UHGV virus genome: UHGV-0385297
Length of the DNA stretch: 64,000 nucleotides
Direction: 5' to 3' (one strand)
Source of the DNA: a virus
Shown: positions 3,476 through 31,384 of the stretch, one piece after another
How positions within the stretch are numbered: position 1 is the stretch's first letter
Layout: the number at the start of each line of letters is the position of its first letter
Notes under the pieces: model-generated
Database searches by the model: none
Told to the model about the DNA's origin: nothing
Seen by the model: the letters and a program-made list of their open reading frames with translations, nothing else
Program-made: the position numbers and the translations under genes

Positions 3476-3607
3476 CTCCATTCATTTGATATAATTGCAC
3501 ATCACTCGCAAGAGTGGTGTGCGAGGATTGAGCCTCTGGCTCGATCCTATAGTGCCACAGGCACATACTTAGTTATTTTCCATTTCATAAATAAAACTTT
3601 GAATTAA

Positions 3608-5907: not shown

Positions 5908-7098
5908 TTATACAAGTTCAATAGGGTAGTAACAAGCTACTCCTTTTTGATTACAGATACATACCATCTGAGATGGTTTTCCAGATAATCTCTTCTCAAT
6001 AGTAAATTGATCACCTGAACCAGCTAAAGTACCACCTCGAATCATTTTTACTCCATTTGCTTCATCAACTGCACAAGTGTGCATGTGACCCATAATTAAG
6101 GCATATGGGAAATACCCAAGCATAGAGCAGAGATTATATGTACCTGCTTTAGAGAATGGGTCGTAGTCTCCGTGAACAACAGTGTAAAACTTTCCACGAA
6201 TATCCAAGTCTACAATACCTACATCCAAATTTCTCTTTAAAATATGGATATTAGATATATGCTGTAAAGATAAACCAACACCCCATGTAATAATGTCATC
6301 AAGACGTTCATCGTGTAATGCATCTTCCTTACGCTCAATCCTGGTATGATTCCCAACTACACTTGAAATAAATACATTTGAAAAATGTTTAGACAATTCA
6401 TAGCAGAAAGATGAAATAAGTTCGGTTGCAATCTTAATCTGTTCGATAACATTTTCTCTATTTGTTACCTGTAAACTTTTATGGATGGACCCTGAAATCA
6501 TATCTCCACATAAAACCACATAACATTTCTCTGAATTATGTAACTCCCTAATAGCAATTACTTCGTTCAGTAATTTATTAAGCCTTTCAGCGGCAATATT
6601 GGAATTGTATTCTCCCCAAACAGAATTAAAGCACTGTCCAATATGAAAATCACTTAAGACAATTAACATATCATTATCAGATGTAACATCTACTTTTTCA
6701 TGAGTCTCAAAATTAGTACGCCCAAGCTGAGAAAGTGTACTTTCCAGCAGGTCTAATTTATTTTCTACACGGGCATCAATATAATTCTGTCTCTGCCAAG
6801 CAGTTCGTTCATCTCTAAACTGAATTTTCTTTCGTTCTAGTTCACGGATCTGTTTATCCAACTCATTATTACGGTTTTCCTTAGAGAATACTTCTGTATT
6901 GAAATCTTTAGCATTGTTGTAACGCTTACGATAAGCACTCTCAGAGCGATAAACGGTTTCATCTTCCCTAAACGCCTTATTAATCAATGCAGCAATTTCG
7001 TCCCATGTCATATCTAAAAGGCCGTTTTCTTTTGCCTGTCCTAATCTCCAAATATACTGAAGTTCGGATTCTCCGTTTAATAAATCTGTATTAAACAA
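5908..7098 (-). CDS. Calcineurin-like metallophosphoesterase with an N-terminal coiled coil (SbcD/Mre11-like?)
   Basis: The motifs LSDFHIG, LCGDMISG, VGNHT and GHMH are preceded by a ~130-aa heptad-rich region. Confidence 0.6.
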   Translation of the reverse strand: MFNTDLLNGESELQYIWRLGQAKENGLLDMTWDEIAALINKAFREDETVYRSESAYRKRYNNAKDFNTEVFSKENRNNELDKQIRELERKKIQFRDERTAWQRQNYIDARVENKLDLLESTLSQLGRTNFETHEKVDVTSDNDMLIVLSDFHIGQCFNSVWGEYNSNIAAERLNKLLNEVIAIRELHNSEKCYVVLCGDMISGSIHKSLQVTNRENVIEQIKIATELISSFCYELSKHFSNVFISSVVGNHTRIERKEDALHDERLDDIITWGVGLSLQHISNIHILKRNLDVGIVDLDIRGKFYTVVHGDYDPFSKAGTYNLCSMLGYFPYALIMGHMHTCAVDEANGVKMIRGGTLAGSGDQFTIEKRLSGKPSQMVCICNQKGVACYYPIELV

Positions 7099-13668: not shown

Positions 13669-14532
13669 CTAAGCTTTTCTATTTGTGGTATTACGTTTTT
13701 CGTTATATTTTTTATATCTAATTAAATCATTTTTTCTCTTACACTCACCACAATACATTTTCTTATTTCCTGTTTTTTCAATCAGTGCGCCACATTGTTT
13801 ACAGCGAGTGTACTTATTATTGTGTCCACGCTTAACTCCATAATATTCTTTCTGATAATTTCGAATATAATAGGAAAGAGAACGATTTATGTACTTAACA
13901 TAGAAATGATCTTCAGTAATAAAATCAAAATTATTTACAAGCTTTGTCTTATCTTCATACTCGTCAATCAATTTACAATTGTCAAAACACTTTCTAAGAA
14001 AACCCTCAATTATGATTTTGTACTCGTTCCAGGAAAGGGTCATTTTTTCTTTCTGAAATCTTTCTTTCGTGGTTAAAGCTTTATCCATAATGTCATCTAT
14101 GACAGAAGTAGCATTTTCTTCGGTCATATCTACACCAGAAGCCCATTTGTAATACAATTGTTTTGGCTTTTTGAGCAAATCCATATATTCCTTATTTAGA
14201 ATTACTTCTTTATCAAAATATTTCGTATAAATATTATTTATTTTTTGCCTTATAATTGAACACCAATTTTGATTTTTGGAAACAGATTTATAGTATTTAT
14301 ATTCAATCATGGACCATGCATCAAATACTTGTCCAACTGGTGTTCCCAGTAAATTCTTTGCTACCTTAAATCGAATAGCTTTCTTATATGTTCTTCTTTT
14401 ATTTCCACATGACCAGATGGCGGAGCAGAACGAAGAGAAAACTTCGTCCTTTTGCTCCTGAGTCTGTAGTTCTTTGTATTTTTCTATAATTTCATATAGA
14501 AATGTTTCGTTACAGTCGTAAATATGTATCAC
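13669..14532 (-). CDS. Hypothetical protein with a C-terminal zinc ribbon
   Basis: It carries CKQCG...CGEC at the C-terminus. Its start overlaps the end of the polymerase gene by 23 nt. Confidence 0.5.
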   Translation of the reverse strand: MIHIYDCNETFLYEIIEKYKELQTQEQKDEVFSSFCSAIWSCGNKRRTYKKAIRFKVAKNLLGTPVGQVFDAWSMIEYKYYKSVSKNQNWCSIIRQKINNIYTKYFDKEVILNKEYMDLLKKPKQLYYKWASGVDMTEENATSVIDDIMDKALTTKERFQKEKMTLSWNEYKIIIEGFLRKCFDNCKLIDEYEDKTKLVNNFDFITEDHFYVKYINRSLSYYIRNYQKEYYGVKRGHNNKYTRCKQCGALIEKTGNKKMYCGECKRKNDLIRYKKYNEKRNTTNRKA

Positions 14533-17140
14533 CTACTTCAAATTCATAATATTTTCCAAGATATTCATAAGTATTATATGATTTGTATGGAACTTCTCGA
14601 ATAGAAATATTTCGCTTTGGATTAGTATTATTTTTTAAATTCTCAATAATATATTCTCCATAAGCAGCCCAAGCTAAAGATTTACTGATTGAAAGAGAAG
14701 AGTATGAAGTTGCAATAACATAATTGGCAATAACATCTTCGTCAAGTTTAAGTTTTTCAGAAATATTATCTTTATATTTCTTTACAACTTCGTCCATACT
14801 AAAATCATTATTTTCATCTTTATGTAAATTTAGATGCTGCTTTATTTCATCTGCATACATATTGATGAATTTCTTACACTCTTTAATGACTCCTTTATCT
14901 TTTAGATTAAGGTCATTGTTGACGATTAAGCATCTTGTATCTATAAGATCATTAACACTGTTATCCCATTTAATATTCTTTTTCTCCCATGTCTCGATGT
15001 ATTCACATAATTCATTCATAGGAGAAGGAGACCTATAGGCATTCAATTTTTCTTTCTCATCTGGTTCAACTCCCTTATTTTTACTAAGAATATTCTGATA
15101 CGTTTTCATTTTTTGAGGATAATTATGAAGCAAGAAATACGGTAGCTGTTTTAAATGTTTTCTCAGACCACTATTCATATGCCACCTAAAACCGGTTTTA
15201 AGAAAATCAATTTCTTTGCCCTGGAAAATTCTTAGAAGAGAAGAGGAATCAGAGTATAACTTCTGAATATCTGGATTTGTTGTATACCGATTCTCAATGC
15301 TTGTTGCTACATTGGTTATTTCACCAATACGGTTATCTCTTGTCATTACTTCATACTCAATTAAATTTTCTTTCGTATATGGTTTTGACTTTGCTGTAAC
15401 CTTATCTTCGACATCAAGAATAATATGTTTGTCAATTTTTGAACCAATAACAATTGGTTCGTTGCACAAAAAGAAAATATCCCCGTCAAAATCTGCCCCT
15501 CCCTGCTGCGGGGCAGATATATCATACATATTAAACATCACGACATCTTGATCTTTAAAATATCCGAACCATTTATTTAAAATGTCATTTCGCACAATTT
15601 GAATCTTGTTTACTTCAGATGGGTCCACAAGAGGAGATCTAAAAGAAGCACAATATCCTGGTTCAAAATTTGCAGTATATAATTCTCTTTCTTTTAAGCA
15701 ACCGACTGGATTTTCTCCGACTGCATATTGAAGATAACCAATCATATCACCAACACCTGTATGATAAAAACCAGAACAATAAATTTTTCCTACTTTTGCC
15801 TCATCAATGGATTTTTTTAATTTTCTATAAATAAACTGCTTTACTGCAGGATCCTTCAACATTACATCATTGATCAATGCTGCTTCGAGATATTTACTTT
15901 CTGGCTCATATCCATCTGTATCATTTATACCCATGAATTTGTAGGTATAAAATTTATCTCCTTTAATAATCTTCTCGAATAGGTTAGTAGTGTATTTTGC
16001 CAATTTGATGATTTTTCCATCATTGTCAGGATTTAAAACGTCATATTCTTTTCTATTTTTATCTACAAAACTATTGATGTATTTCTCATTCCATAGATCA
16101 AGACATTGTAAATACTGAAAATTCATTCTGGTGTACTTGTTTAAGTGCTTTACATGATGGCTATACTTACTAATACCTAATTTAAACTGATATTTCTGTA
16201 ATGTCTTCATATATTCAATCCATGCATCATTTCCATACTTTGATTTAAAAATCTTATGACCTTTAAACATTGAGATGTTCCAGATACAATCAATATCATC
16301 GATTTTATGCTCATATCCATAGATATCAGTAATAGTAGTGTATCCCCATTCCTTTAGAATTTGTTTAAATGGAACATATACGGAATATCCTTTTATAAAT
16401 GGCAGACGAACCTGGTTTCCAATAACGTCATAGCCTAAATCCAACTGTGTACTAACAGTTTTCATAAATTCTCTTTCATGACAACCACATCCATCAAAAG
16501 GAGATAATCCTATATCTCTTAAACCTTCTTCAATTTCTCTAACTTTATATTTTTTGGACTCACCAGTTTCTTTATCTACGAAAGTTTTTTCTTTTTCTAT
16601 GACATATTTGATAAGCTGATCATTTAAAGTTTTTTCATATTCACCGATGATAACAATATTTGGAATATAATCTTTAATGAGAGTACAGGAGCTAAACGGG
16701 AGACATCTTTGCGCTTCATATTTAGAAATAACGCACTCATCAATTTCAATATCCATTTGAGTGATCATGTATAATTCATCGAAAATTTCGTCACATACAA
16801 AAGCAGTAATACCGTCTTTTCCCTGAGATGCAGATTTTCCAAAACGAGAATAATGAGTACCGTTATACGTAAATCCATTATTAAGAATATCTCGCAGTGC
16901 GGTTTCTTGTTTTGGATTCTTTTTTGCGACTATAAGCATAAGCTCTTTAATATGTGTTGAAAATCTACCTCTTAGCCTTTGAATCTGATCAAACAATAAG
17001 GAATCACCTTGTTTAATAAGATATTCATTATCTATTTCTTCATTTTTACTTAGACTCAAATCATATTCTGAATCAATGAGTTTTTTGATTGGTAACTTAA
17101 CCAAAGTGTATTGAATTGATTTTATAATAAACACCACCAT
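14510..17140 (-). CDS. YonO-like single-subunit RNA polymerase candidate
   Basis: This 876-aa protein contains QQGGADFDGDIFF. ADFDGD is the invariant Mg-binding loop of multisubunit RNAP beta-prime and of the SPbeta-prophage YonO polymerase. Its size and its HU-like neighbour also fit YonO. Confidence 0.55.
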   Translation of the reverse strand: MVVFIIKSIQYTLVKLPIKKLIDSEYDLSLSKNEEIDNEYLIKQGDSLLFDQIQRLRGRFSTHIKELMLIVAKKNPKQETALRDILNNGFTYNGTHYSRFGKSASQGKDGITAFVCDEIFDELYMITQMDIEIDECVISKYEAQRCLPFSSCTLIKDYIPNIVIIGEYEKTLNDQLIKYVIEKEKTFVDKETGESKKYKVREIEEGLRDIGLSPFDGCGCHEREFMKTVSTQLDLGYDVIGNQVRLPFIKGYSVYVPFKQILKEWGYTTITDIYGYEHKIDDIDCIWNISMFKGHKIFKSKYGNDAWIEYMKTLQKYQFKLGISKYSHHVKHLNKYTRMNFQYLQCLDLWNEKYINSFVDKNRKEYDVLNPDNDGKIIKLAKYTTNLFEKIIKGDKFYTYKFMGINDTDGYEPESKYLEAALINDVMLKDPAVKQFIYRKLKKSIDEAKVGKIYCSGFYHTGVGDMIGYLQYAVGENPVGCLKERELYTANFEPGYCASFRSPLVDPSEVNKIQIVRNDILNKWFGYFKDQDVVMFNMYDISAPQQGGADFDGDIFFLCNEPIVIGSKIDKHIILDVEDKVTAKSKPYTKENLIEYEVMTRDNRIGEITNVATSIENRYTTNPDIQKLYSDSSSLLRIFQGKEIDFLKTGFRWHMNSGLRKHLKQLPYFLLHNYPQKMKTYQNILSKNKGVEPDEKEKLNAYRSPSPMNELCEYIETWEKKNIKWDNSVNDLIDTRCLIVNNDLNLKDKGVIKECKKFINMYADEIKQHLNLHKDENNDFSMDEVVKKYKDNISEKLKLDEDVIANYVIATSYSSLSISKSLAWAAYGEYIIENLKNNTNPKRNISIREVPYKSYNTYEYLGKYYEFEVGDTYLRL

Positions 17141-22849: not shown

Positions 22850-23340
22850 TGGTAGAGTGGATTTGTAGTATAGATATAATGGTAGATACGACAAGTTAAT
22901 AATCGGATACGTTAGAACGATCCCTGGGTAATGGTATGTTATGTACTGTTACTTGGGGATTTTTTGTTGTGTAATTGTGTTGGGATGGATCGGAATGGAT
23001 GAAGGGTATGTTTTGATGTGTTATGAGTTGAAAACATGGAATCGTAAATTCCCTTTAATATAATGAAGAAACACGTTTTAAGATTAGAATTTTAATTTTT
23101 GGGATGTTGCATTTTTTGAAATTTTGGTGCGATTTTTATTGAGATTGCGGGATTTTTACGATAAGGGGGCCGATAACAGTTTTTGAGGTGGTGACGAGGG
23201 GATTTTGGGCGTAGTTGTGGGGAAATGGAGTGTTGGGATTTGGAATGTAGATGGGAGAGGAGCGTGATACACCTGGATGAGTTGGAAGTGGTGGGTGATT
23301 TGGAAGAGATGTTCAAATTTTAATTTGAAAGTTTGATTTT
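22850..23340. other. GT-rich, nearly cytosine-free tract with no ORF
   Basis: About 490 bp of G/T runs (GGGATTTTT three times, GTGTTGGGAT twice, GGGG runs). The opposite strand is C/A-rich and G-poor. Confidence 0.7.
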
Positions 23341-23467
23341 GAACTTAGTGTGTAGATGAAACAGCTACCGGCTCTGGTGAAAACACTTTAGCACTTTAAA
23401 GTTTTAACCAGCCCCCATAAACAATAATAGTAATAATTACTGTTATTTTACACGGTTTTTTCCTATT

Positions 23468-23481
23468 TTACCGTAGCCGAA
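23468..23481. promoter_or_regulatory. LexA (Cheo/SOS) box CGAACATATGTTCT
   Basis: It matches the Bacillus-type consensus CGAACATATGTTCG at 13 of 14 positions. Confidence 0.6.
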
Positions 23482-23506
23482 CATATGTTCTGTTATTTGA
23501 TCCGAC

Positions 23507-23520
23507 TTCTGGCAATCGAA
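23507..23520. promoter_or_regulatory. LexA (Cheo/SOS) box CGAACATATGTTTG
   Basis: A 13 of 14 match to the consensus, 39 bp from the first box. Confidence 0.55.
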
Positions 23521-23662
23521 CATATGTTTGCTTATTGACTGTGAGCTATGATAGTTTTTTAAACTTTTACATGTAGTATTGATAACTACATGTAATGATA
23601 TTTAATACTATAAGAGGTAGTTCGACAGTGAAAAAATAATATCGAAAAAATTAAAATTGTTA

Positions 23663-23691
23663 TTGACAATCACACTATCATGTGATATATT
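23663..23691 (+). promoter_or_regulatory. Consensus promoter with a TCACA-N6-TGTGA operator in its spacer
   Basis: TTGACA, a 17-nt spacer (atcacactatcatgtga) and TATATT. Confidence 0.7.
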
Positions 23692-23763
23692 ATAGTCAAG
23701 TTCATAAAGAACGACAGCGGGAACGCTGTTATAGCACTTTTAAAAGTTTTTAGAAAAAAGTGC

Positions 23764-23792
23764 TTGACAATCACATGAACGTGTGATATAGT
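23764..23792 (+). promoter_or_regulatory. Second tandem promoter with the same operator
   Basis: TTGACA, a 17-nt spacer (atcacatgaacgtgtga) and TATAGT. Confidence 0.7.
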
Positions 23793-23799
23793 CATTAAT

Positions 23800-24400
23800 G
23801 TAAGAACAAAGTAGTTCAGTTCTTACAGCCGCTAAAATGCCCATGTGGGGCGGTGGCAAGTTCCTTGTCAATTTAATAGGAATAAAGCCCATGAATTGAA
23901 AAATTCACAGGCTTTAAAAGTTGGTTTGATAAACCAAACCGTAGCAAGTTCAGTTTATCATTCTATCTTTCATTTGTCAAGTCTGGCAAGTGTTTTCCTA
24001 TTAATCGGCTACCAGTGACGGCACTGGTGGACTTTGCGCAACGGTCAAGATAACAATACTGGATGCCCGCAAGAGTGTCTAGCGTTTACGCAAGTAAGCG
24101 CATTGTGAAAATACCCGTTGTGGGTACATTGAAAAATAAACAACTTATACAGTGTTTTATAAAGCGTTTGGCATTTTCAACAACGGGTGAATTCCCCGTT
24201 AAAATGTCCGTGTAGCGTATAAAAGCGTTACACTAGCAAGCTGGACTTAGCACGACTGCGGTTGTGAACGTGTTCGCATTTGCGCACTTAGCTTGCTACT
24301 GGTGAAAATCCCACACTAGGATTCTGAAATCTTGCCTAGTAGTGACCCGTAAGAAGGTAGGAAGTCGGTTTAAGGCTGAGAAGCATTTTGGACAATAAAT
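23800..24400 (+). ncRNA. Candidate large structured RNA or leader (GC-rich island, no ORF)
   Basis: GC is about 45-48% against roughly one-third in the flanks. Nested inverted repeats include AAAGCC..TGAATT..AATTCA..GGCTTT, GGTTTG..CAAACC, CCCGTTGT..ACAACGGG and TAGCAAGCT..AGCTTGCTA. It lies downstream of two strong promoters. Confidence 0.3.
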
Positions 24401-24538
24401 AAAATGATTGTAAGACGTGTCGTTATACATAGGTCAAGGGGCGGACTAGCACTACCAGTCTGTCCTTTGCTCGTGTGCATAACACGGCAACTACAAAAAA
24501 TAATTTTAATTCCGCAATGCGGAGAAAGAGGTATTTAT

Positions 24539-25339
24539 ATGAAGATTAACTTTTTAGCAAACTTTGAGAAAGTAACTATCAACGCTATTGTGCCAGCGGT
24601 ACAGTATGAGGCTAACCTGATGCTTCAGACTATGAATGATGAAGCAATCGCTAAACAGGATAAAATCATCTCTAATCAAAAAGGTGGTTACTCTGAGGAC
24701 GAAATTAAGGTAGCAAAGGACAAAAAGAGTAAACTGGAAGCCGCTAACGCTGAACTTGTAATTGCTAATGCTGAACTTGAGCCACGCTACAAGTCTACCC
24801 TGGAAGTAGTTACCAGTGCTAACAATGGTCATGTATCTAATGACCTTGTAGCGTTCCGTAACATTTTACGGCTTGTGGCATGCTCTGATAATAGCAAGTT
24901 TTTCCGCTATGCCATTATCACAGATGTCGATTTTTCAACGTTTTATGACCTGTTTGAAAAGTGCCATTCTATCGATGGTGACTTTGATGACAATGGTATG
25001 CGTGTATACCTTAATCAGGCTTGGAACACCCATAAAGACATCAAAGCTGAGATTGAAAAAATCCTTAAAAAAATGTTTTCACTCGTTGCTGACAGTGATT
25101 TAACCAAAAAAGTTACTATCAGATTTAACAAAACAGACCTTGGCATCTTACATGAGTGTTACGTCACAGGTCTGACCGTTTCTGCTAAAAAGGATAAAAA
25201 CGGTGAGGTAGTAGTGGGTGATTATAAATTTAGAACTGTAATCACTCGTAAGAAAGACAAGGATGGCAATGATAAGTTTGAAGGTGACAAGTTCAAAGAA
25301 CTCATTGCTAAAATTGCGTTTGGAAAACTGTATGCATAG
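24539..25339 (+). CDS. Hypothetical protein (first gene of the plus-strand block)
   Basis: An ATG with a GAGAAAGAGG RBS. The longer track ORF would start inside the structured region. Confidence 0.6.
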   Translation: MKINFLANFEKVTINAIVPAVQYEANLMLQTMNDEAIAKQDKIISNQKGGYSEDEIKVAKDKKSKLEAANAELVIANAELEPRYKSTLEVVTSANNGHVSNDLVAFRNILRLVACSDNSKFFRYAIITDVDFSTFYDLFEKCHSIDGDFDDNGMRVYLNQAWNTHKDIKAEIEKILKKMFSLVADSDLTKKVTIRFNKTDLGILHECYVTGLTVSAKKDKNGEVVVGDYKFRTVITRKKDKDGNDKFEGDKFKELIAKIAFGKLYA

Positions 25340-26256: not shown

Positions 26257-26340
26257 ATGATGAGTTTTGTTTGGGTAATGTGTGTATTTTTCGGTGGTAT
26301 GGCATGTGGTTATTTACTTACTGATAATAAGGAGGATTAA
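26257..26340 (+). CDS. 27-aa hydrophobic peptide
   Basis: MMSFVWVMCVFFGGMACGYLL, preceded by the same GGAGGTAGCGAAATG context as the gene upstream. Confidence 0.35.
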   Translation: MMSFVWVMCVFFGGMACGYLLTDNKED

Positions 26341-26344
26341 GGAT

Positions 26345-26710
26345 ATGAAAAGAGAAATGACTAGAGGAGAAATGAGACTGTATTTAACTGGCAATGCCAG
26401 TGTATGGGTAGGTAAGACATTTGCACATGGTAAAAACATGCGCATGGTATCCAGGTTCACAGAAGAGGCAGATTATACCTGTGAGTATGATGGTGAGGAT
26501 CTGGGTGATGGATTCTGCACACATGACGTAGACGAGGCACTTGACTGGTTATTCGGTGTACGGAAATCAAACTACCAGAAGCATTATTTCTACTTTGCGA
26601 CTGGGGAAAATGTAAAATCAATCTGCTTTTACACATCAGAGGACGCATGGGAATTTGTAAAAGAATACGCAGATAGCGGTTATGACTGCGTAGTAGAAAG
26701 ATATATATAA
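26345..26710 (+). CDS. Hypothetical protein
   Basis: RBS AAGGAGGATTAAGGATATG. Confidence 0.55.
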   Translation: MKREMTRGEMRLYLTGNASVWVGKTFAHGKNMRMVSRFTEEADYTCEYDGEDLGDGFCTHDVDEALDWLFGVRKSNYQKHYFYFATGENVKSICFYTSEDAWEFVKEYADSGYDCVVERYI

Positions 26711-26866
26711 AGGCAGACCATGCTCTGCCAGCTCTGAGTTATGGAAACCGCTACGAGGTTCAGAGCAGACAACGGAATTTATTTCGGCTAATATCCATAG
26801 GTAACTTGTAAACCAGTATAAAAACCGTTATACTTGACTTATAAAAGTGAAAGGCGGTGGAAAGGA

Positions 26867-27703: not shown

Positions 27704-27732
27704 TTGAAAATCACATGTATATGTGATAGAAT
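27704..27732 (+). promoter_or_regulatory. Third promoter carrying the TCACA-N6-TGTGA operator
   Basis: TTGAAA, a 17-nt spacer (atcacatgtatatgtga) and TAGAAT, directly upstream of the Cro-like gene. Confidence 0.65.
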
Positions 27733-27763: not shown

Positions 27764-28045
27764 ATGATAGTATATAGAAAACTAAACAATTTGCTAAAAG
27801 AAAAAGGAATGACATGGAAAGATTTATGTCAAGCAGGAATTAGTGTTAATATGCCAACTAAATTTTCACTAAATAGAGTAGTGAAAACAGATGTTATAGA
27901 TAAAATTTGTGCATATTTACATGTTCAACCCGGTGACATAATGGAATGGGTAGAAGATGAGGATGAATTAAAGCAACTTGAAATAGAATCGCAAATCGCA
28001 GCACTCAAAAAGCAACTCGCAGATCTTAAAGGAGACAAACCATAA
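27764..28045 (+). CDS. XRE/Cro-type HTH regulator
   Basis: The HTH LKEKGMTWKDLCQAGISVNMPTKFSLNRVVK is present. The gene's own promoter carries the operator shared with the 23.7 kb promoters. Confidence 0.65.
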   Translation: MIVYRKLNNLLKEKGMTWKDLCQAGISVNMPTKFSLNRVVKTDVIDKICAYLHVQPGDIMEWVEDEDELKQLEIESQIAALKKQLADLKGDKP

Positions 28046-30256: not shown

Positions 30257-31384
30257 ATGTGTAGAATTGATGGAAAGAAACTTACTGTATTAAGAAAATC
30301 TCAGAAAATGAGCCAGGAGGATTTAGCAAAGAAAAGTGGTTTAAGTAGGAGTGCCATAGGTAATTATGAAACTGGAAGATTTAATGCAAGTGATGAGGCA
30401 TTGGATATGATTGCACAGGCTTTAGGTGTTGAATCAAAAGAACTTGATAAAGATTTTATCCAGCTTGGAAAAGCTGTTATAGAAGGTAAAAATGATTCTC
30501 ACCATATCCATAACACAGATAAGCGGTATTTAACTCCACAGGAAACTCAGGAAATCCTTGATAAATTACGGTCTTATAGTGACAATGTGTCACTTGAAGA
30601 AGCGAAACGAGCATTGACAAAAGCAAACCAGTCTACAGTAGGCAATAAGGTATATGCGGTTGTAGCGATTAAAGGATTAAATATTCCTGTATGGCAGAGA
30701 AATACAGACAAAGAGAAATGCTTAGAAATCAGCCAGAAATATGATGAAAACAAATATGATCCAATTAAAGTATATGCTTTCAATGAAAAGTTATACGTAG
30801 CTGATGGAGCGCATAGATTAATTGCTTACATCATGCGAGGAGAAGAATATATTCTGGTTGAACTTATGGATATTGAAACGGAAATTGAAGCAGCTCATAC
30901 GTTCTTATTACAGAGTTTAGGCAGACGGAGAATGTCTCAGAATGATATGTGGAGAGCTGCTATTAAAGCCGGATTAGTCCAGTACGAAACATTACGGAAA
31001 ATTGCTATTAAAAATAAAATCCAGATTAAGGCAGATCTTAAGACGATTAAGAACCCTGTCGGAACTATCAATGCAGTATCAGGGAAAATGTTACGGATTG
31101 CGCATAGTGACCCTGATGTATTAGAGAAAGTGTTCGCTCTTATTAAAACACTTGGTTGGAATGCATCTGATACAAGTCCATACAAAACTTATATCCTGTG
31201 TACTTTGAAAAATATGTACGCAAATTTCAGCGAAAGAGAGAATGAATTAGAGAAGTTGATGATGGAAAACTGTATGGGTGCAACCTATTTTGAAGAGAAA
31301 GTTGCAACTGTAAATACACAGACAAGACTGTATGACGTTTTAATGGAAGATATTTCCAAAAATGCAGAAAAGAAAACTGCATAA
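30257..31384 (+). CDS. XRE-HTH fused to a ParB/sulfiredoxin-like domain
   Basis: An N-terminal HTH (LSRSAIGNYETG) and a central region KLYVADGAHRLIAYIMRGEEYILV that resembles the ParB N-terminal GxxRxxA box. The gene stands alone between a terminator and a hairpin. Confidence 0.6.
   Translation: MCRIDGKKLTVLRKSQKMSQEDLAKKSGLSRSAIGNYETGRFNASDEALDMIAQALGVESKELDKDFIQLGKAVIEGKNDSHHIHNTDKRYLTPQETQEILDKLRSYSDNVSLEEAKRALTKANQSTVGNKVYAVVAIKGLNIPVWQRNTDKEKCLEISQKYDENKYDPIKVYAFNEKLYVADGAHRLIAYIMRGEEYILVELMDIETEIEAAHTFLLQSLGRRRMSQNDMWRAAIKAGLVQYETLRKIAIKNKIQIKADLKTIKNPVGTINAVSGKMLRIAHSDPDVLEKVFALIKTLGWNASDTSPYKTYILCTLKNMYANFSERENELEKLMMENCMGATYFEEKVATVNTQTRLYDVLMEDISKNAEKKTA

What the first reader, a model, noticed from the sequence alone, without database searches (positions are those of the whole stretch)
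23800..24400. A 600-nt GC-rich, ORF-free, heavily base-paired segment behind two strong operator-gated promoters; candidate large ncRNA
GC rises to about 45-48% against roughly one-third for the genome. There are many nested inverted repeats (AAAGCCcaTGAATTgaaaaAATTCAcaGGCTTT; GGTTTGataaaCCAAACC; CCCGTTGT...ACAACGGG; CTAGCAAGCT...AGCTTGCTA). No ORF of 60 aa or more exists on the sense strand. The segment sits directly downstream of two tandem near-consensus promoters. Large ornate RNAs such as ROOL and GOLLD are characteristically found in Firmicutes phages and prophages, often near tRNAs. The alternative reading is an unusually long structured 5' leader for the 24539 operon.
Basis: partly seen in the sequence, partly recalled or inferred. 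Interest (0 to 1): 0.7.

Follow-up and report, generated by a model that had tools for sequence, protein, structure and literature searches.

The report
Phage early-operon leader hiding antisense RNA
The flagged stretch is the roughly 740-base untranslated, strongly folded leader of a gut phage's repressor-controlled early operon; it is assembled from exchangeable RNA modules and carries a ~70-base antisense RNA gene on the opposite strand, and it is not one giant RNA of a known family such as ROOL or GOLLD.

Summary
The observation mostly holds. Window 23795-24538 has no conserved ORF under any genetic code. Its GC is 41.9% against 33.4% for the window, not 45-48%. It is the most stably folding 400-nt stretch of the 64 kb, and it lies behind two operator-gated promoters. 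No Rfam family matches it: not ROOL, GOLLD, HEARO, raiA, a riboswitch or a ribozyme.

Relatives from metagenomes show a mosaic rather than one ornate RNA:
- an invariant 22-nt hairpin, M1, whose closing stem covaries;
- a small gene on the minus strand, with a perfect sigma-A promoter (23980-23952), about 70 nt of RNA and an intrinsic terminator (23916-23883), conserved in seven lineages.
- a folded domain (24036-24124) kept through compensatory changes;
- an exchangeable cassette (24127-24487) that ends in a terminator-like hairpin, M5.

In relatives the M5 position holds a twister-like ribozyme, a hammerhead or a tRNA-like cloverleaf.

Best reading: this is a composite regulatory leader. A cis-antisense RNA damps early transcripts, and the leader is probably separated from the mRNA at its 3' end. 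All functions are inferred; there are no expression data. It is a new variant of known kinds and moderately interesting.

The parts
23663..23691 (+). Early promoter P1: TTGACA, 17-nt spacer, TATATT, with TG. The operator palindrome ATCACActatcaTGTGAT (23669-23686) lies between the hexamers.
   Evidence: Relatives carry different palindromes at the same place (AACATGTT.. in L001-L003, ACTACA..TGTAGT in L034 and L288), which indicates swapping of immunity specificity.
23764..23792 (+). Early promoter P2: TTGACA, 17-nt spacer, TATAGT, with TG. It has the same kind of operator at 23770-23787. The inferred transcription start is about 23799.
   Evidence: The start site is inferred from the position of the -10 element.
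23799..23827 (+). 5'-terminal hairpin H1 (UGUAAGAAC/GUUCUUACA) at the predicted start of the P2 transcript.
   Evidence: Folds. It is conserved in L001, L002, L005, L033 and L288, but it never varies, so there is no covariation test.
23828..23857 (+). M1 hairpin. It has a variable closing stem, a 5' internal loop UAAAAU, an invariant GCCC/GGGC stem and an AUGUG loop. The core CTAAAATGCCCATGTGGGGCGG (23832-23853) is invariant.
   Evidence: The core is exact or differs at one base in 8 otherwise unrelated leader types. Covariation of the closing stem: 85% of cells paired against 70% in shuffles (0 of 500 shuffles as high), score 0.386 against 0.123, and slid controls at most 0.204. It is single copy.
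23952..23985 (-). Promoter of the antisense small RNA: CAGAC-TTGACA(23980-23975)-N14-TGA(23960-23958)-TAAACT(23957-23952).
   Evidence: The stringent pattern TTGACA-N14-TGN-TANNNT occurs only 3 times in the 64 kb: P1, P2 and this site. The expected number is 0.07. The hexamers, the TG and the 17-nt spacing are invariant in seven lineages, while the spacer sequence is the same in the three closest (window, L002, L033) and differs in L034, L030, L114 and L085.
23873..23945 (-). Predicted ~70-nt cis-antisense small RNA: a 5' hairpin (complement of 23923-23940), a terminator stem (23916-23883) and a tail UUCCUAUUAA. The start (about 23945) and end are inferred.
   Evidence: The terminator was called. 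The fold gives -24.3 kcal/mol, z = -6.3. The same layout, 5' hairpin plus intrinsic terminator 65-90 nt after the promoter, appears with different sequences in L033, L034, L030, L114 and L085.
23971..24002 (+). Sense-strand hairpin UUGUCAagucUGGCAA followed by UGUUUUCCUAUU. It overlaps the -35 of the antisense promoter and is a possible weak attenuator.
   Evidence: Terminator-like site. The stem is retained with wobble or compensated changes in L034, L030 and L001. The U tract is absent in L114 and L085, so the role is uncertain.
24036..24124 (+). Conserved folded domain: closing stem CGCAACGG/CCGUUGUG (24037-24044 with 24115-24122) around three inner helices.
   Evidence: In L033 the inner sequence is largely replaced, yet the four helices stay 95-100% paired, with 12 changes on both sides of a pair. 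The evidence rests on one divergent lineage (L033, and L288 which is similar).
24127..24487 (+). Exchangeable cassette, type A in this window. It includes the long hairpin 24233-24242/24290-24298 and the motifs CUGGUGAAAAUCCCACA and GUAGGAAGUCGG.
   Evidence: L001, L033, L287 and L288 replace it with a different ~435-nt RNA that ends in a twister-like ribozyme. L005, L034 and L004 have other sequences. Only near-identical copies of type A were found, so there is no covariation test.
24436..24485 (+). M5: the hairpin AAGGGGCGGAC-(11-nt loop)-GUCUGUCCUUU, then the small hairpin GUGUgcauaACAC. It is a terminator-like or processing element at the end of the leader.
   Evidence: The fold gives -25.5 kcal/mol, z = -3.6. 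It belongs to a family with clear intrinsic-terminator members after genes in L005, L030, L031 and L043. The stem is compensated in the second L043 copy. The window copy has only 3 U after the stem.
24512..24541 (+). M6 hairpin CCGCaauGCGG, immediately followed by the Shine-Dalgarno sequence GAGAAAGAGG and the ATG (24539) of the first early gene (266 aa, no known family).
   Evidence: The hairpin is kept with different sequences: CCCAacaTGGG in L005 and CCCATgcgttaaATGGG in L004 and L030. The gene product has no match in Pfam, PHROGs, PADLOC, NCBIfam or the PDB.

Best explanation
Window 23795-24538 is the long untranslated leader of the early, lytic operon of a temperate phage. The phage carries a YonO-type RNA polymerase and most likely infects Firmicutes. 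The leader is read rightward from the repressor-gated promoters P1 and P2. It is a composite of exchangeable modules, not one RNA machine.

(1) The transcript begins with a 5' hairpin and then the invariant M1 hairpin. M1 is probably a binding site for a conserved protein or for RNA polymerase; its function is not established.

(2) A strong sigma-A promoter facing leftward at 23980-23952 makes a ~70-nt RNA that ends at an intrinsic terminator. This RNA is perfectly complementary to leader positions ~23873-23945. I infer that it pairs with nascent early transcripts, forming a duplex that RNase III cleaves, and/or that it interferes with convergent transcription. When P1 and P2 are only leaky, this would act as a second lock on the lytic operon. 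Full derepression would overwhelm it.

(3) The remaining ~500 nt is a folded domain plus a swappable structured cassette that ends in the M5 hairpin. Relatives carry a twister-like ribozyme, a hammerhead or a tRNA-like cloverleaf at exactly this position. I therefore infer that the leader is separated from the coding mRNA here, by partial termination or by nuclease processing in this phage. The mRNA would then start with the M6 hairpin and the ribosome-binding site.

Shown: the sequence features, their conservation and their covariation. Inferred: transcription, RNA ends and all regulatory effects.
For: Non-coding status:
- No ORF is conserved, and recoding a stop codon gives no ORF that spans the region.
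- The equivalent position is ORF-free, apart from short unconserved ORFs, for roughly 350-1000 nt in relatives whose first gene is only 22-48% identical.

Promoters:
- P1, P2 and the minus-strand promoter are the only three perfect TTGACA-N14-TGN-TANNNT sites in the 64 kb; 0.07 are expected by chance.
- The minus-strand promoter shows the signature of a promoter: fixed hexamers, TG and spacing with a spacer sequence that differs outside the three closest relatives, in seven lineages.

Antisense RNA:
- Each of the six lineages folded has a 5' hairpin plus a stem followed by a U run, 65-90 nt downstream on the minus strand. Their sequences are otherwise dissimilar. z ranges from -3.2 to -6.3.

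Conserved structure:
- M1 covaries.
- The 24036-24124 domain is maintained through 12 compensatory pairs.
- The + strand folds better than the - strand (-242.8 against -207.6 kcal/mol), and G-U pairs in conserved helices fit a + strand RNA.

Mosaic structure:
- Breakpoints relative to relatives lie at 23647, 23857-23877, 24052, 24140, 24422 and 24487.
- The modules M1 and M2 occur in the opposite order in L030.

The 3' slot in relatives:
- Twister-P1-like elements with compensated P1, P2 and P4 stems and a compensated T1 pseudoknot: L040 at 41 bits (E = 9e-6), L033 and L001 at about 33 bits.
- A hammerhead III with a complete CUGAUGAG..CGAAAC core in L034, about 40 nt before the ATG.
- An ARAGORN-called cloverleaf in L004.

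Precedent: hammerheads flank genes in prophage polycistronic RNAs, and one lies 13 nt upstream of the first early gene of halovirus HF2 (PMC3088659).
Against: - No transcript data of any kind are available. The transcription starts, RNA ends and effect of the antisense RNA are all inferred.
- The window itself has no ribozyme core in the leader.
- M5 has only three U after its stem, so termination there may be weak or absent.
- The type A cassette (24127-24487) has no comparative support, because only copies 95-99% identical were found. Its local folding z-scores are modest (+0.7 to -3.7).
- The covariation in 24036-24124 rests on one divergent lineage, and the structure tested was derived from the same sequences.
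- M1 and the antisense gene are absent from some relatives: L004 has neither, and L033, L114 and L085 lack M1. Neither is therefore indispensable.
- In L003 an IS30 element splits the leader. Either an intact leader is dispensable, or that genome is defective.
Confidence: 0.5

Rival explanations
1. A single discrete large ornate non-coding RNA of ~650-700 nt, from P2 to the M5 hairpin, with a trans-acting function of its own, comparable to ROOL or GOLLD. The downstream operon would be expressed only by read-through.
For: - The whole-region fold has z = -8.5, and GC is in the 99.6th percentile.
- Several helices are conserved or covary.
- A 3'-end-forming element sits at the end of the leader in every type: M5, twister, hammerhead or tRNA-like. 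Such an element would release a discrete RNA.
- The window has phage context and tRNA genes.
Against: - No Rfam large-RNA model matches, even at E = 10.
- The segment is a patchwork. Its parts are swapped independently and reordered between relatives.
- About 135 bp belongs to a minus-strand gene.
- An IS30 element interrupts it in L003.
- A 20-nt deletion in L002 and L003 removes one proposed long-range helix.
- The 3' half is only modestly structured locally.
Confidence: 0.15
2. A purely cis-acting leader that controls read-through. The hairpins followed by U runs (23971-24002 and M5) would be attenuators. M1 would be a nut/put-like RNA signal that makes RNA polymerase resistant to termination. 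No released RNA would have a function.
For: - M1 is an invariant hairpin placed after early promoters in eight leader types. This recalls lambda boxB/nut and HK022 put (established knowledge).
- There are terminator-like sites on the sense strand.
- M5 belongs to a family of intrinsic terminators.
Against: - No N-like, Q-like or LoaP-like gene was identified; the first genes have no known families.
- M1 is missing from L033, L114, L085 and L004, which keep long leaders.
- The sense-strand U tracts are weak or absent in L114 and L085.
- Ribozymes and a tRNA-like element at the same position point to cleavage rather than termination.
Confidence: 0.2
3. A type I toxin-antitoxin module or its remnant. 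The minus-strand small RNA would be an antitoxin against a small membrane-toxin mRNA in the leader.
For: - The leaders of L005 and L030 contain 22-25-aa hydrophobic ORFs with strong Shine-Dalgarno sites.
- L005 has a similar minus-strand promoter just 3' of that ORF (inspection).
- SPbeta-type prophages are known to carry type I systems (established knowledge).
Against: - The window has no small ORF with a credible ribosome-binding site opposite or next to the small RNA.
- The 57-aa frame is not conserved.
- In L030 the small RNA points away from the small ORF.
Confidence: 0.05
4. A DNA-level element, such as a replication origin, packaging site or attachment site, or else a decayed gene, rather than functional RNA.
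For: - Palindromes fold on both strands; the minus strand has z = -6.25.
- A 10-bp inverted repeat (23871-23880 with 23996-24005) brackets the small-RNA gene (helix 5).
Against: - Stems are kept through G-U wobbles and compensatory changes that fit the + strand RNA.
- There are no iterons or tandem repeats.
- The ORF-free state is old: it is shared with relatives whose neighbouring protein is 22-48% identical.
- There are no frame remnants under any code.
Confidence: 0.05

Closest known systems
Phage cis-antisense small RNAs: P22 sar and lambda OOP
   Same: Each is a ~70-nt RNA made from its own promoter inside, and convergent with, a phage regulatory transcript. Each ends at an intrinsic terminator and is fully complementary to its target. 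Such RNAs are expected to act through duplex formation, RNase III cleavage or promoter interference (established knowledge; anatomy).
   Different: The target here is an untranslated leader far (~600 nt) from the first start codon, not a ribosome-binding site or the end of a gene. There is no sequence similarity and no Rfam family. The host is a Gram-positive gut bacterium. Expression and effect are untested.
Antisense-RNA transcription attenuation (pT181, pIP501, pAMbeta1; pCF10 Anti-Q) and phage P4 CI RNA immunity
   Same: A countertranscript or small RNA is encoded within the leader of the controlled operon. A hairpin followed by a U run lies just downstream of the target region on the sense strand (23971-24002).
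   Different: The sense-strand U tract is not conserved in L114 and L085. No alternative pre-emptor pairing has been demonstrated. P4 CI is processed from the same strand, whereas here the RNA is a separate convergent transcript.
Self-cleaving ribozymes that punctuate prophage polycistronic RNAs (hammerheads, Perreault et al. 2011, PMC3088659; the halovirus HF2 hammerhead 13 nt before the first early gene; twister)
   Same: Relatives of this leader carry a hammerhead III or a twister-like ribozyme 40-60 nt before the first early gene. The window's own operon has an HDV-like ribozyme at 26731-26800.
   Different: The window's leader has no recognisable ribozyme. That position is occupied by the M5 hairpin, which is not known to cleave. 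The twister-like elements score below Rfam's gathering cut-off (33-41 bits against 67.2) and lack P3.
Large ornate bacterial and phage RNAs (ROOL, GOLLD, HEARO, raiA)
   Same: All are hundreds of nucleotides long, GC-enriched and highly folded. The context is a Firmicutes-type phage with tRNA genes in the same genome.
   Different: There is no covariance-model match. The architecture is not conserved as a whole, because modules are swapped and reordered. Part of the segment is a gene on the other strand.
Lambda nut/boxB and HK022 put antitermination RNA signals
   Same: M1 is a short, sequence-invariant hairpin just downstream of repressor-controlled early promoters.
   Different: There is no sequence resemblance and no identified partner protein. 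The distance from the promoter varies from 35 to about 490 nt. M1 is absent from several related leaders.

Membership tests
ROOL / GOLLD / HEARO / raiA (large ornate RNAs in Rfam) | A match to the family covariance model (sequence plus secondary structure) at or near its gathering score | tested here: not met
   cmscan of the whole window at gathering thresholds and at E <= 2, and of 23300-24700 at E <= 10, gave no hit to any of these families. Relatives also gave none.
Riboswitches / T-box and other cis-regulatory Rfam families | A match to a known aptamer or leader model | tested here: not met
   No such hit at E <= 10 in 23300-24700. The best hits were microRNA and snoRNA models at E of 0.6-9.
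Self-cleaving ribozymes (hammerhead, twister, twister-sister, pistol, hatchet, HDV-like) within 23795-24538 | The conserved catalytic core, or a model match | tested here: not met
   No Rfam hit. No CUGANGA...CGAAA motif and no twister loop motif in the leader. Ribozymes do occur in relatives at the equivalent position, and at window 26731-26800.
Cis-encoded antisense small RNA gene | Its own promoter on the opposite strand | tested here: met
   TTGACA-N14-TGA-TAAACT at 23980-23952. It is one of only 3 such sites in the 64 kb, with 0.07 expected. The hexamers, TG and spacing are conserved in seven lineages, and the spacer sequence differs outside the three closest.
Cis-encoded antisense small RNA gene | A defined 3' end (an intrinsic terminator) a short distance downstream | tested here: met
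   A stem at 23916-23883 followed by UUCCUAUUAA. Non-homologous terminators lie at the same distance in L033, L034, L030, L114 and L085.
Cis-encoded antisense small RNA gene | The RNA accumulates and affects the sense transcript | not testable with these tools
   No transcriptome or genetic data are available.
Intrinsic (factor-independent) terminator, for M5 | A GC-rich stem immediately followed by a run of U | tested here: inconclusive
   The stem is strong (about 13 pairs; -25.5 kcal/mol with the neighbouring hairpin). Family members after genes have UUUUAU tails. The window copy has only UUU followed by GCUCG, plus an 11-nt loop, and the terminator scan did not call it.
Type I toxin-antitoxin system | A small hydrophobic toxin ORF with a ribosome-binding site, overlapped by or adjacent to the antisense RNA | tested here: not met
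   There is no such ORF in the window. The only longer frame is not conserved. Candidate ORFs exist only in L005 and L030.
5' untranslated leader of an operon | It lies between mapped or predicted promoters and the first start codon on the same strand, with no intervening strong terminator or gene | tested here: met
   P1 and P2 lie at 23663-23792. The first ATG with a Shine-Dalgarno site is at 24539. Only weak terminator-like sites lie on the + strand in between. The start site itself has not been mapped.

The most novel reading that the evidence does not exclude
The leaders of this phage group would be carriers of exchangeable non-coding RNA cassettes, the RNA equivalent of phage morons. Each cassette would be expressed first after derepression and would bring its own 3'-end-forming device. 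These devices are interchangeable: a twister-like ribozyme, a hammerhead, a tRNA-like cloverleaf cut by RNase P or Z, or the M5 hairpin. The released, stable ~0.4-0.7-kb RNAs would act in trans, for example as decoys against host defences or nucleases. M1 would be a shared handle. On this reading, M5 in the window would be a new processing or self-cleaving element occupying a ribozyme position.
Probability: 0.2. Interest if true: 0.8.

Novelty: new variant of a known kind. Interest (0 to 1): 0.5.

Why it matters
1. It turns a vague "large ncRNA" call into a concrete, testable map of a lysis-lysogeny control region in an uncultured group of large gut phages that encode a YonO-type polymerase. 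The map has three perfect promoters facing each other within 320 bp, a predicted antisense RNA, and an invariant hairpin of unknown function.

2. The biological role of bacterial and phage twister and hammerhead ribozymes is still unclear. Here, natural relatives carry a twister-like ribozyme, a hammerhead, a tRNA-like element or a plain hairpin at the same position, in front of the same gene. That is a ready-made swap experiment for asking what cleavage at the leader-mRNA junction achieves.

3. M1 and the ~300-nt conserved RNA upstream of the ribozymes in relatives are not in Rfam. They could seed new families.

Tried and rejected
- **Rfam.** I ran it at gathering and permissive thresholds on the window and on 15 related loci. 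There were no large-RNA or riboswitch hits.
- **GenBank phages.** A blastn search with the leader and a tblastn search with the first gene found no match.
- **Protein-guided searches for more relatives.** They returned only near-identical loci, or failed for lack of conserved blocks. The homologue search found 6 proteins.
- **M1 as a mimic of a host sequence or a prophage marker.** There were no exact matches in 185,579 representative genomes, so the idea of a CRISPR-repeat or host mimic was dropped.
- **M1 as a multi-copy phage-polymerase promoter.** It is single copy in the window and in each relative.
- **M1 as the start of a conserved peptide (MPMWGG...).** The frames end after 6-33 codons and have no Shine-Dalgarno site, so this was rejected by inspection.
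- **A loose pattern for the antisense promoter.** Run against viral and genome collections, it returned mostly chance hits. Only L114 and L085 were real.
- **A pattern for the type A cassette.** It found only known loci.
- **A long-range partner for the M5 loop CACUACCA.** None is conserved.
- **Hidden ORFs under recoded stop codons.** None spans the region.
- **A 736-nt MFE scan of the whole window.** It timed out. I replaced it with a 400-nt scan.
Full report
**What is at the coordinates**

Window 23795-24538 lies between two tandem promoters and the first gene of a rightward operon, whose ATG is at 24539 and is preceded by GAGAAAGAGG. The promoters match 11 of 12 consensus positions and have TG-extended -10 elements (23663-23691 and 23764-23792). 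Each holds an ATCACA-N6-TGTGAT palindrome between its hexamers. A third copy of that promoter-operator stands at 27704, in front of a Cro/C1-type HTH gene.

The longest sense ORF is 57 aa. It is truncated in L001 and out of frame in L033. Reassigning TGA, TAG or TAA does not create an ORF that spans the region.

GC is 41.9% for 23800-24400, against 33.4% for the whole window. That is the 99.6th percentile of 600-nt windows, but below the 45-48% claimed, and the adjacent genes are 36-42.5% GC.

The + strand folds to -242.8 kcal/mol (z = -8.5) and the - strand to -207.6 kcal/mol (z = -6.25). After regression on GC, 23800-24199 is the most stable of 82 windows of 400 nt, and 24100-24499 ranks seventh. 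In 150-nt windows the strong signal (z of -5 to -6, on both strands) lies in windows starting 23640-23880, which span 23640-24029. Windows starting 23940-24420 give only +0.7 to -3.7, and the + strand is the better folder in all but one of them.

**Genome context**

The window encodes an 876-aa protein that matches PF05183. It is 30% identical to the "RNA-dependent RNA polymerase" of Thomasclavelia phages, and more distantly related to YonO of SPbeta. The window also has six tRNA genes and an anti-repressor-like gene. It is therefore a large temperate phage of Firmicutes-type hosts. No deposited phage shares the leader or the first gene.

**Known families**

cmscan against Rfam 15 found nothing in the segment at gathering thresholds, and only noise at E <= 10. 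The best hit was a microRNA model at E = 1.5. Membership of ROOL, GOLLD, HEARO, raiA, any riboswitch or any ribozyme family was therefore tested and not met. The one notable hit elsewhere in the window is an HDV-like ribozyme (RF02682) at 26731-26800, at 44.1 bits against a cut-off of 44. It recurs in relatives L004 and L001.

**Relatives show a mosaic**

Searches with neighbouring proteins and with short conserved DNA motifs recovered about a dozen independent relatives from IMG/VR, ENA and Logan.

- L002 and L042 are 95-97% identical to the window throughout.
- L001 is alike up to 24140. It then carries a different ~435 nt and rejoins at 24487.
- L033 and L288 are alike to about 24052 in blastn. 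The closing stem and the sequence up to about 24127 still align by eye, and from there they carry the same cassette as L001. L287 carries that cassette as well.
- L005 diverges just after 23857-23877 and rejoins at 24422.
- L004 diverges at 23647.
- L003 has an IS30-family transposase (NF033563, 103 bits) inserted at about 24006.

The operators inside P1 and P2 differ between relatives, as expected for swapped immunity specificities. In all relatives the position stays ORF-free, apart from short unconserved ORFs, for about 350-1000 nt. This holds even though the first gene is only 22-48% identical. That argues against a recently decayed gene.

All-against-all comparison shows short shared modules in otherwise unrelated leaders. 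They are sometimes in a different order: M2 precedes M1 by about 400 nt in L030.

**Module M1**

The sequence CTAAAATGCCCATGTGGGGCGG (23832-23853) is exact, or differs at one base, in eight leader types. It forms a hairpin in which the internal loop UAAAAU, the GCCC/GGGC stem and the AUGUG loop are invariant, while the closing stem varies.

- 85% of cells are paired, against 70% in shuffles (0 of 500 shuffles as high).
- The covariation score is 0.386, against 0.123 in shuffles.
- Slid controls reach at most 0.204.
- Four of the pairs are G-U on the + strand.

M1 is single copy per phage. It is absent from L004, L033, L114 and L085, and from 185,579 representative genomes. Its function is unknown; a protein-binding or polymerase-binding signal is the natural guess.

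**Module M2 is a gene on the other strand**

Read on the minus strand, 23985-23952 is CAGAC-TTGACA-N14-TGA-TAAACT. In the whole 64 kb, on both strands, the pattern TTGACA-N14-TGN-TANNNT occurs three times: P1, P2 and this site. The number expected by chance is 0.07.

In seven lineages (window, L002, L033, L034, L030, L114 and L085) the -35, the TG, the -10 and the 17-nt spacing are fixed. The spacer sequence is identical in the window, L002 and L033, and differs in L034, L030, L114 and L085. L001 keeps TTGACT-17-TAAAAT. That is the signature of a promoter rather than of an RNA helix.

The minus strand downstream of this promoter was folded for six of these lineages (L002 is identical to the window there). 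Within 65-90 nt, each carries a 5' hairpin and then a stem followed by a U run, with otherwise dissimilar sequences. z ranges from -3.2 to -6.3.

In the window the predicted RNA runs from about 23945 to about 23873. L033 replaces the terminator hairpin with an unrelated one followed by UUUUUU. That explains why the hairpin is preserved without its sequence. The RNA is by construction fully complementary to leader positions ~23873-23945.

**The rest of the leader**

Helices around 24036-24124 (closing stem CGCAACGG/CCGUUGUG plus three inner helices) stay 95-100% paired in L033 despite extensive sequence replacement, with 12 pairs changed on both sides. For the whole 5' half there are 18 such pairs, against 4.5 in shuffles and 2-5 in slid controls. 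Two caveats apply: there is only one divergent lineage, and the structure was derived from these same sequences.

The cassette 24127-24487 has only near-identical relatives, so it has no comparative test. A 20-nt block that holds the ACAACGGG arm is missing in L002 and L003.

**The 3' slot**

Just before a small hairpin (M6, which covaries) and the Shine-Dalgarno site, the window carries M5 (24436-24485).

M5 belongs to a family with the consensus (C)AUAGUUAGAAGGGCnGAC-loop-GUCnGCCCUUUUAUAGUG. Its copies after genes in L005, L030, L031 and L043 are textbook intrinsic terminators. The leader copies in the window, L005 and L043 have enlarged loops containing CACUACCA. The U tract is short (three U) in the window and L005, and four U in L043.

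At the same position relatives carry:

- a twister-P1-like element in L001, L033, L287 and L288; a further copy lies between genes in L040. Scores are 33-41 bits, below the cut-off of 67.2, because P3 is missing. However, P1, P2, P4 and the T1 pseudoknot are all compensated between copies;
- a hammerhead III with a complete core in L034 (26 bits);
- an ARAGORN-called cloverleaf in L004.

Three of the four kinds of occupant are known RNA-cutting signals. Precedents exist in prophages and in halovirus HF2 (PMC3088659). The window's leader itself has no ribozyme core.

**Interpretation**

The segment is best read as a composite early-operon leader.

- *Shown:* non-coding status; the promoter and terminator anatomy on both strands; conservation and covariation of M1, of the antisense gene and of one folded domain; modular exchange.
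- *Inferred:* the antisense RNA damps leaky early transcripts, in the style of P22 sar or lambda OOP (duplex formation, RNase III cleavage, or convergent-promoter interference); and the leader is detached from the mRNA at M5.

A single ROOL- or GOLLD-like RNA is unlikely, given the patchwork structure, the opposite-strand gene, the IS insertion and the lack of any model match. A purely cis-acting antitermination leader remains a reasonable rival. The more novel reading is that these leaders carry swappable RNA cassettes with interchangeable 3'-end devices, and that these are released as functional RNAs. The evidence does not exclude this.

**Limits**

- There are no expression data.
- Relatives are few and unevenly diverged.
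- E-values for the custom model are rough.
- The type A cassette that fills most of the flagged coordinates is the least supported part.

Noticed in passing
window 26731-26800 (+): An HDV-like self-cleaving ribozyme (Rfam RF02682, HDV-F-prausnitzii) at 44.1 bits against a gathering score of 44. It lies between genes, after ORF 26282-26710 in the same early operon. The same element is present in relatives L004 (8568-8637, 46 bits) and L001 (6190-6259, 42.7 bits).
   Followed up: partly
L001 3899-3954; L033 2546-2600; L040 1164-1218; L287 and L288 (by eye); L034 4614-4669: Relatives carry minimal twister-P1-like elements. They lack P3 and score 33-41 bits, below the cut-off, but their stems and the T1 pseudoknot are compensated. 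L034 carries a hammerhead III with a complete core. These lie 40-60 nt before the first early gene, or between early genes.
   Followed up: partly
L004 6546-6633: An 88-nt cloverleaf-like element (ARAGORN calls it tRNA-Lys; no Rfam tRNA hit at E <= 1). It has a 7-bp acceptor stem and a UUCAAUU T-loop, and lies directly before the ribosome-binding hairpin of the first early gene. This is the same position as the ribozymes and M5.
   Followed up: partly
L001, L033, L287, L288 (e.g. L033 2250-2545) and L034 4270-4610: A ~300-nt RNA upstream of the twister or hammerhead. It has conserved islands (GGTATACG; CTTGAAGTGT-hairpin-ACAGGTGAARAG; GGGTAAAAA; TCC..GGGTG.GAG.CCC.AAAAGT) separated by compensated hairpins. 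It has no Rfam match and is a candidate new structured RNA family. It is absent from the window.
   Followed up: partly
window 23478-23491 and 23517-23530: Two boxes (CGAACATATGTTCT and CGAACATATGTTTG) that resemble the Gram-positive LexA (Cheo) box, about 150-200 bp upstream of P1. They are conserved in L001-L005, L033 and L288. They suggest a direct SOS input into the early region.
   Followed up: no
window 22962-23330: An ORF-free, C-poor, G/T-rich tract (GC skew up to +0.71) with recurring GGGAT and TGGGA words. Similar tracts lie upstream of the control region in L030 and L288. On the minus strand it would be C-rich and G-poor, like a Rho-loading site. Its function is unknown.
   Followed up: no
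window 23566-23596: A near-perfect palindrome, TTTACATGTAGTATTGATAACTACATGTAA, between the LexA-like boxes and P1. It is conserved in all close relatives. It could be an operator or a terminator-like hairpin.
   Followed up: no
L003 1773-3474 (equivalent to window ~24006): An IS30-family insertion sequence (437-aa transposase, NF033563 at 103 bits) sits inside the leader of one relative. It is flanked by a duplicated TTTCCTATTAATC.
   Followed up: partly
L005 ~6013-6081 and L030 ~3498-3575: Small hydrophobic ORFs with strong Shine-Dalgarno sites lie inside related leaders: MLIFLKYLIVASIIYVTLSNKQ and MISLIIKVAIITVLILSVRDDINNR. In L005 a minus-strand promoter (TTGACC, 17-nt spacer, TAGAAT) lies just 3' of the ORF, which resembles a type I toxin-antitoxin layout.
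   Followed up: no
window 14510-17140 (-): An 876-aa YonO-like single-subunit RNA polymerase (PF05183, E = 1e-13). It is 30% identical to Thomasclavelia phage TR-TP1 and about 23% identical to SPbeta YonO. It places the phage in an uncultured branch of large temperate Firmicutes phages.
   Followed up: partly
window 27704-27730 and 27764-28045; 30257-31384: A third copy of the operator-bearing promoter precedes a 93-aa Cro/C1-type HTH gene. Further on, a 375-aa protein has an N-terminal HTH_3 domain and a long uncharacterised C-terminal part. It may be a repressor or a signal receptor; this was not examined.
   Followed up: no
window 23871-23880 and 23996-24005: A perfect 10-bp inverted repeat (TTAATAGGAA / TTCCTATTAA) brackets the whole antisense RNA gene. 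L034 has a different 8-bp inverted repeat in the same positions. This could be a long-range sense-strand helix or a trace of cassette mobility.
   Followed up: no
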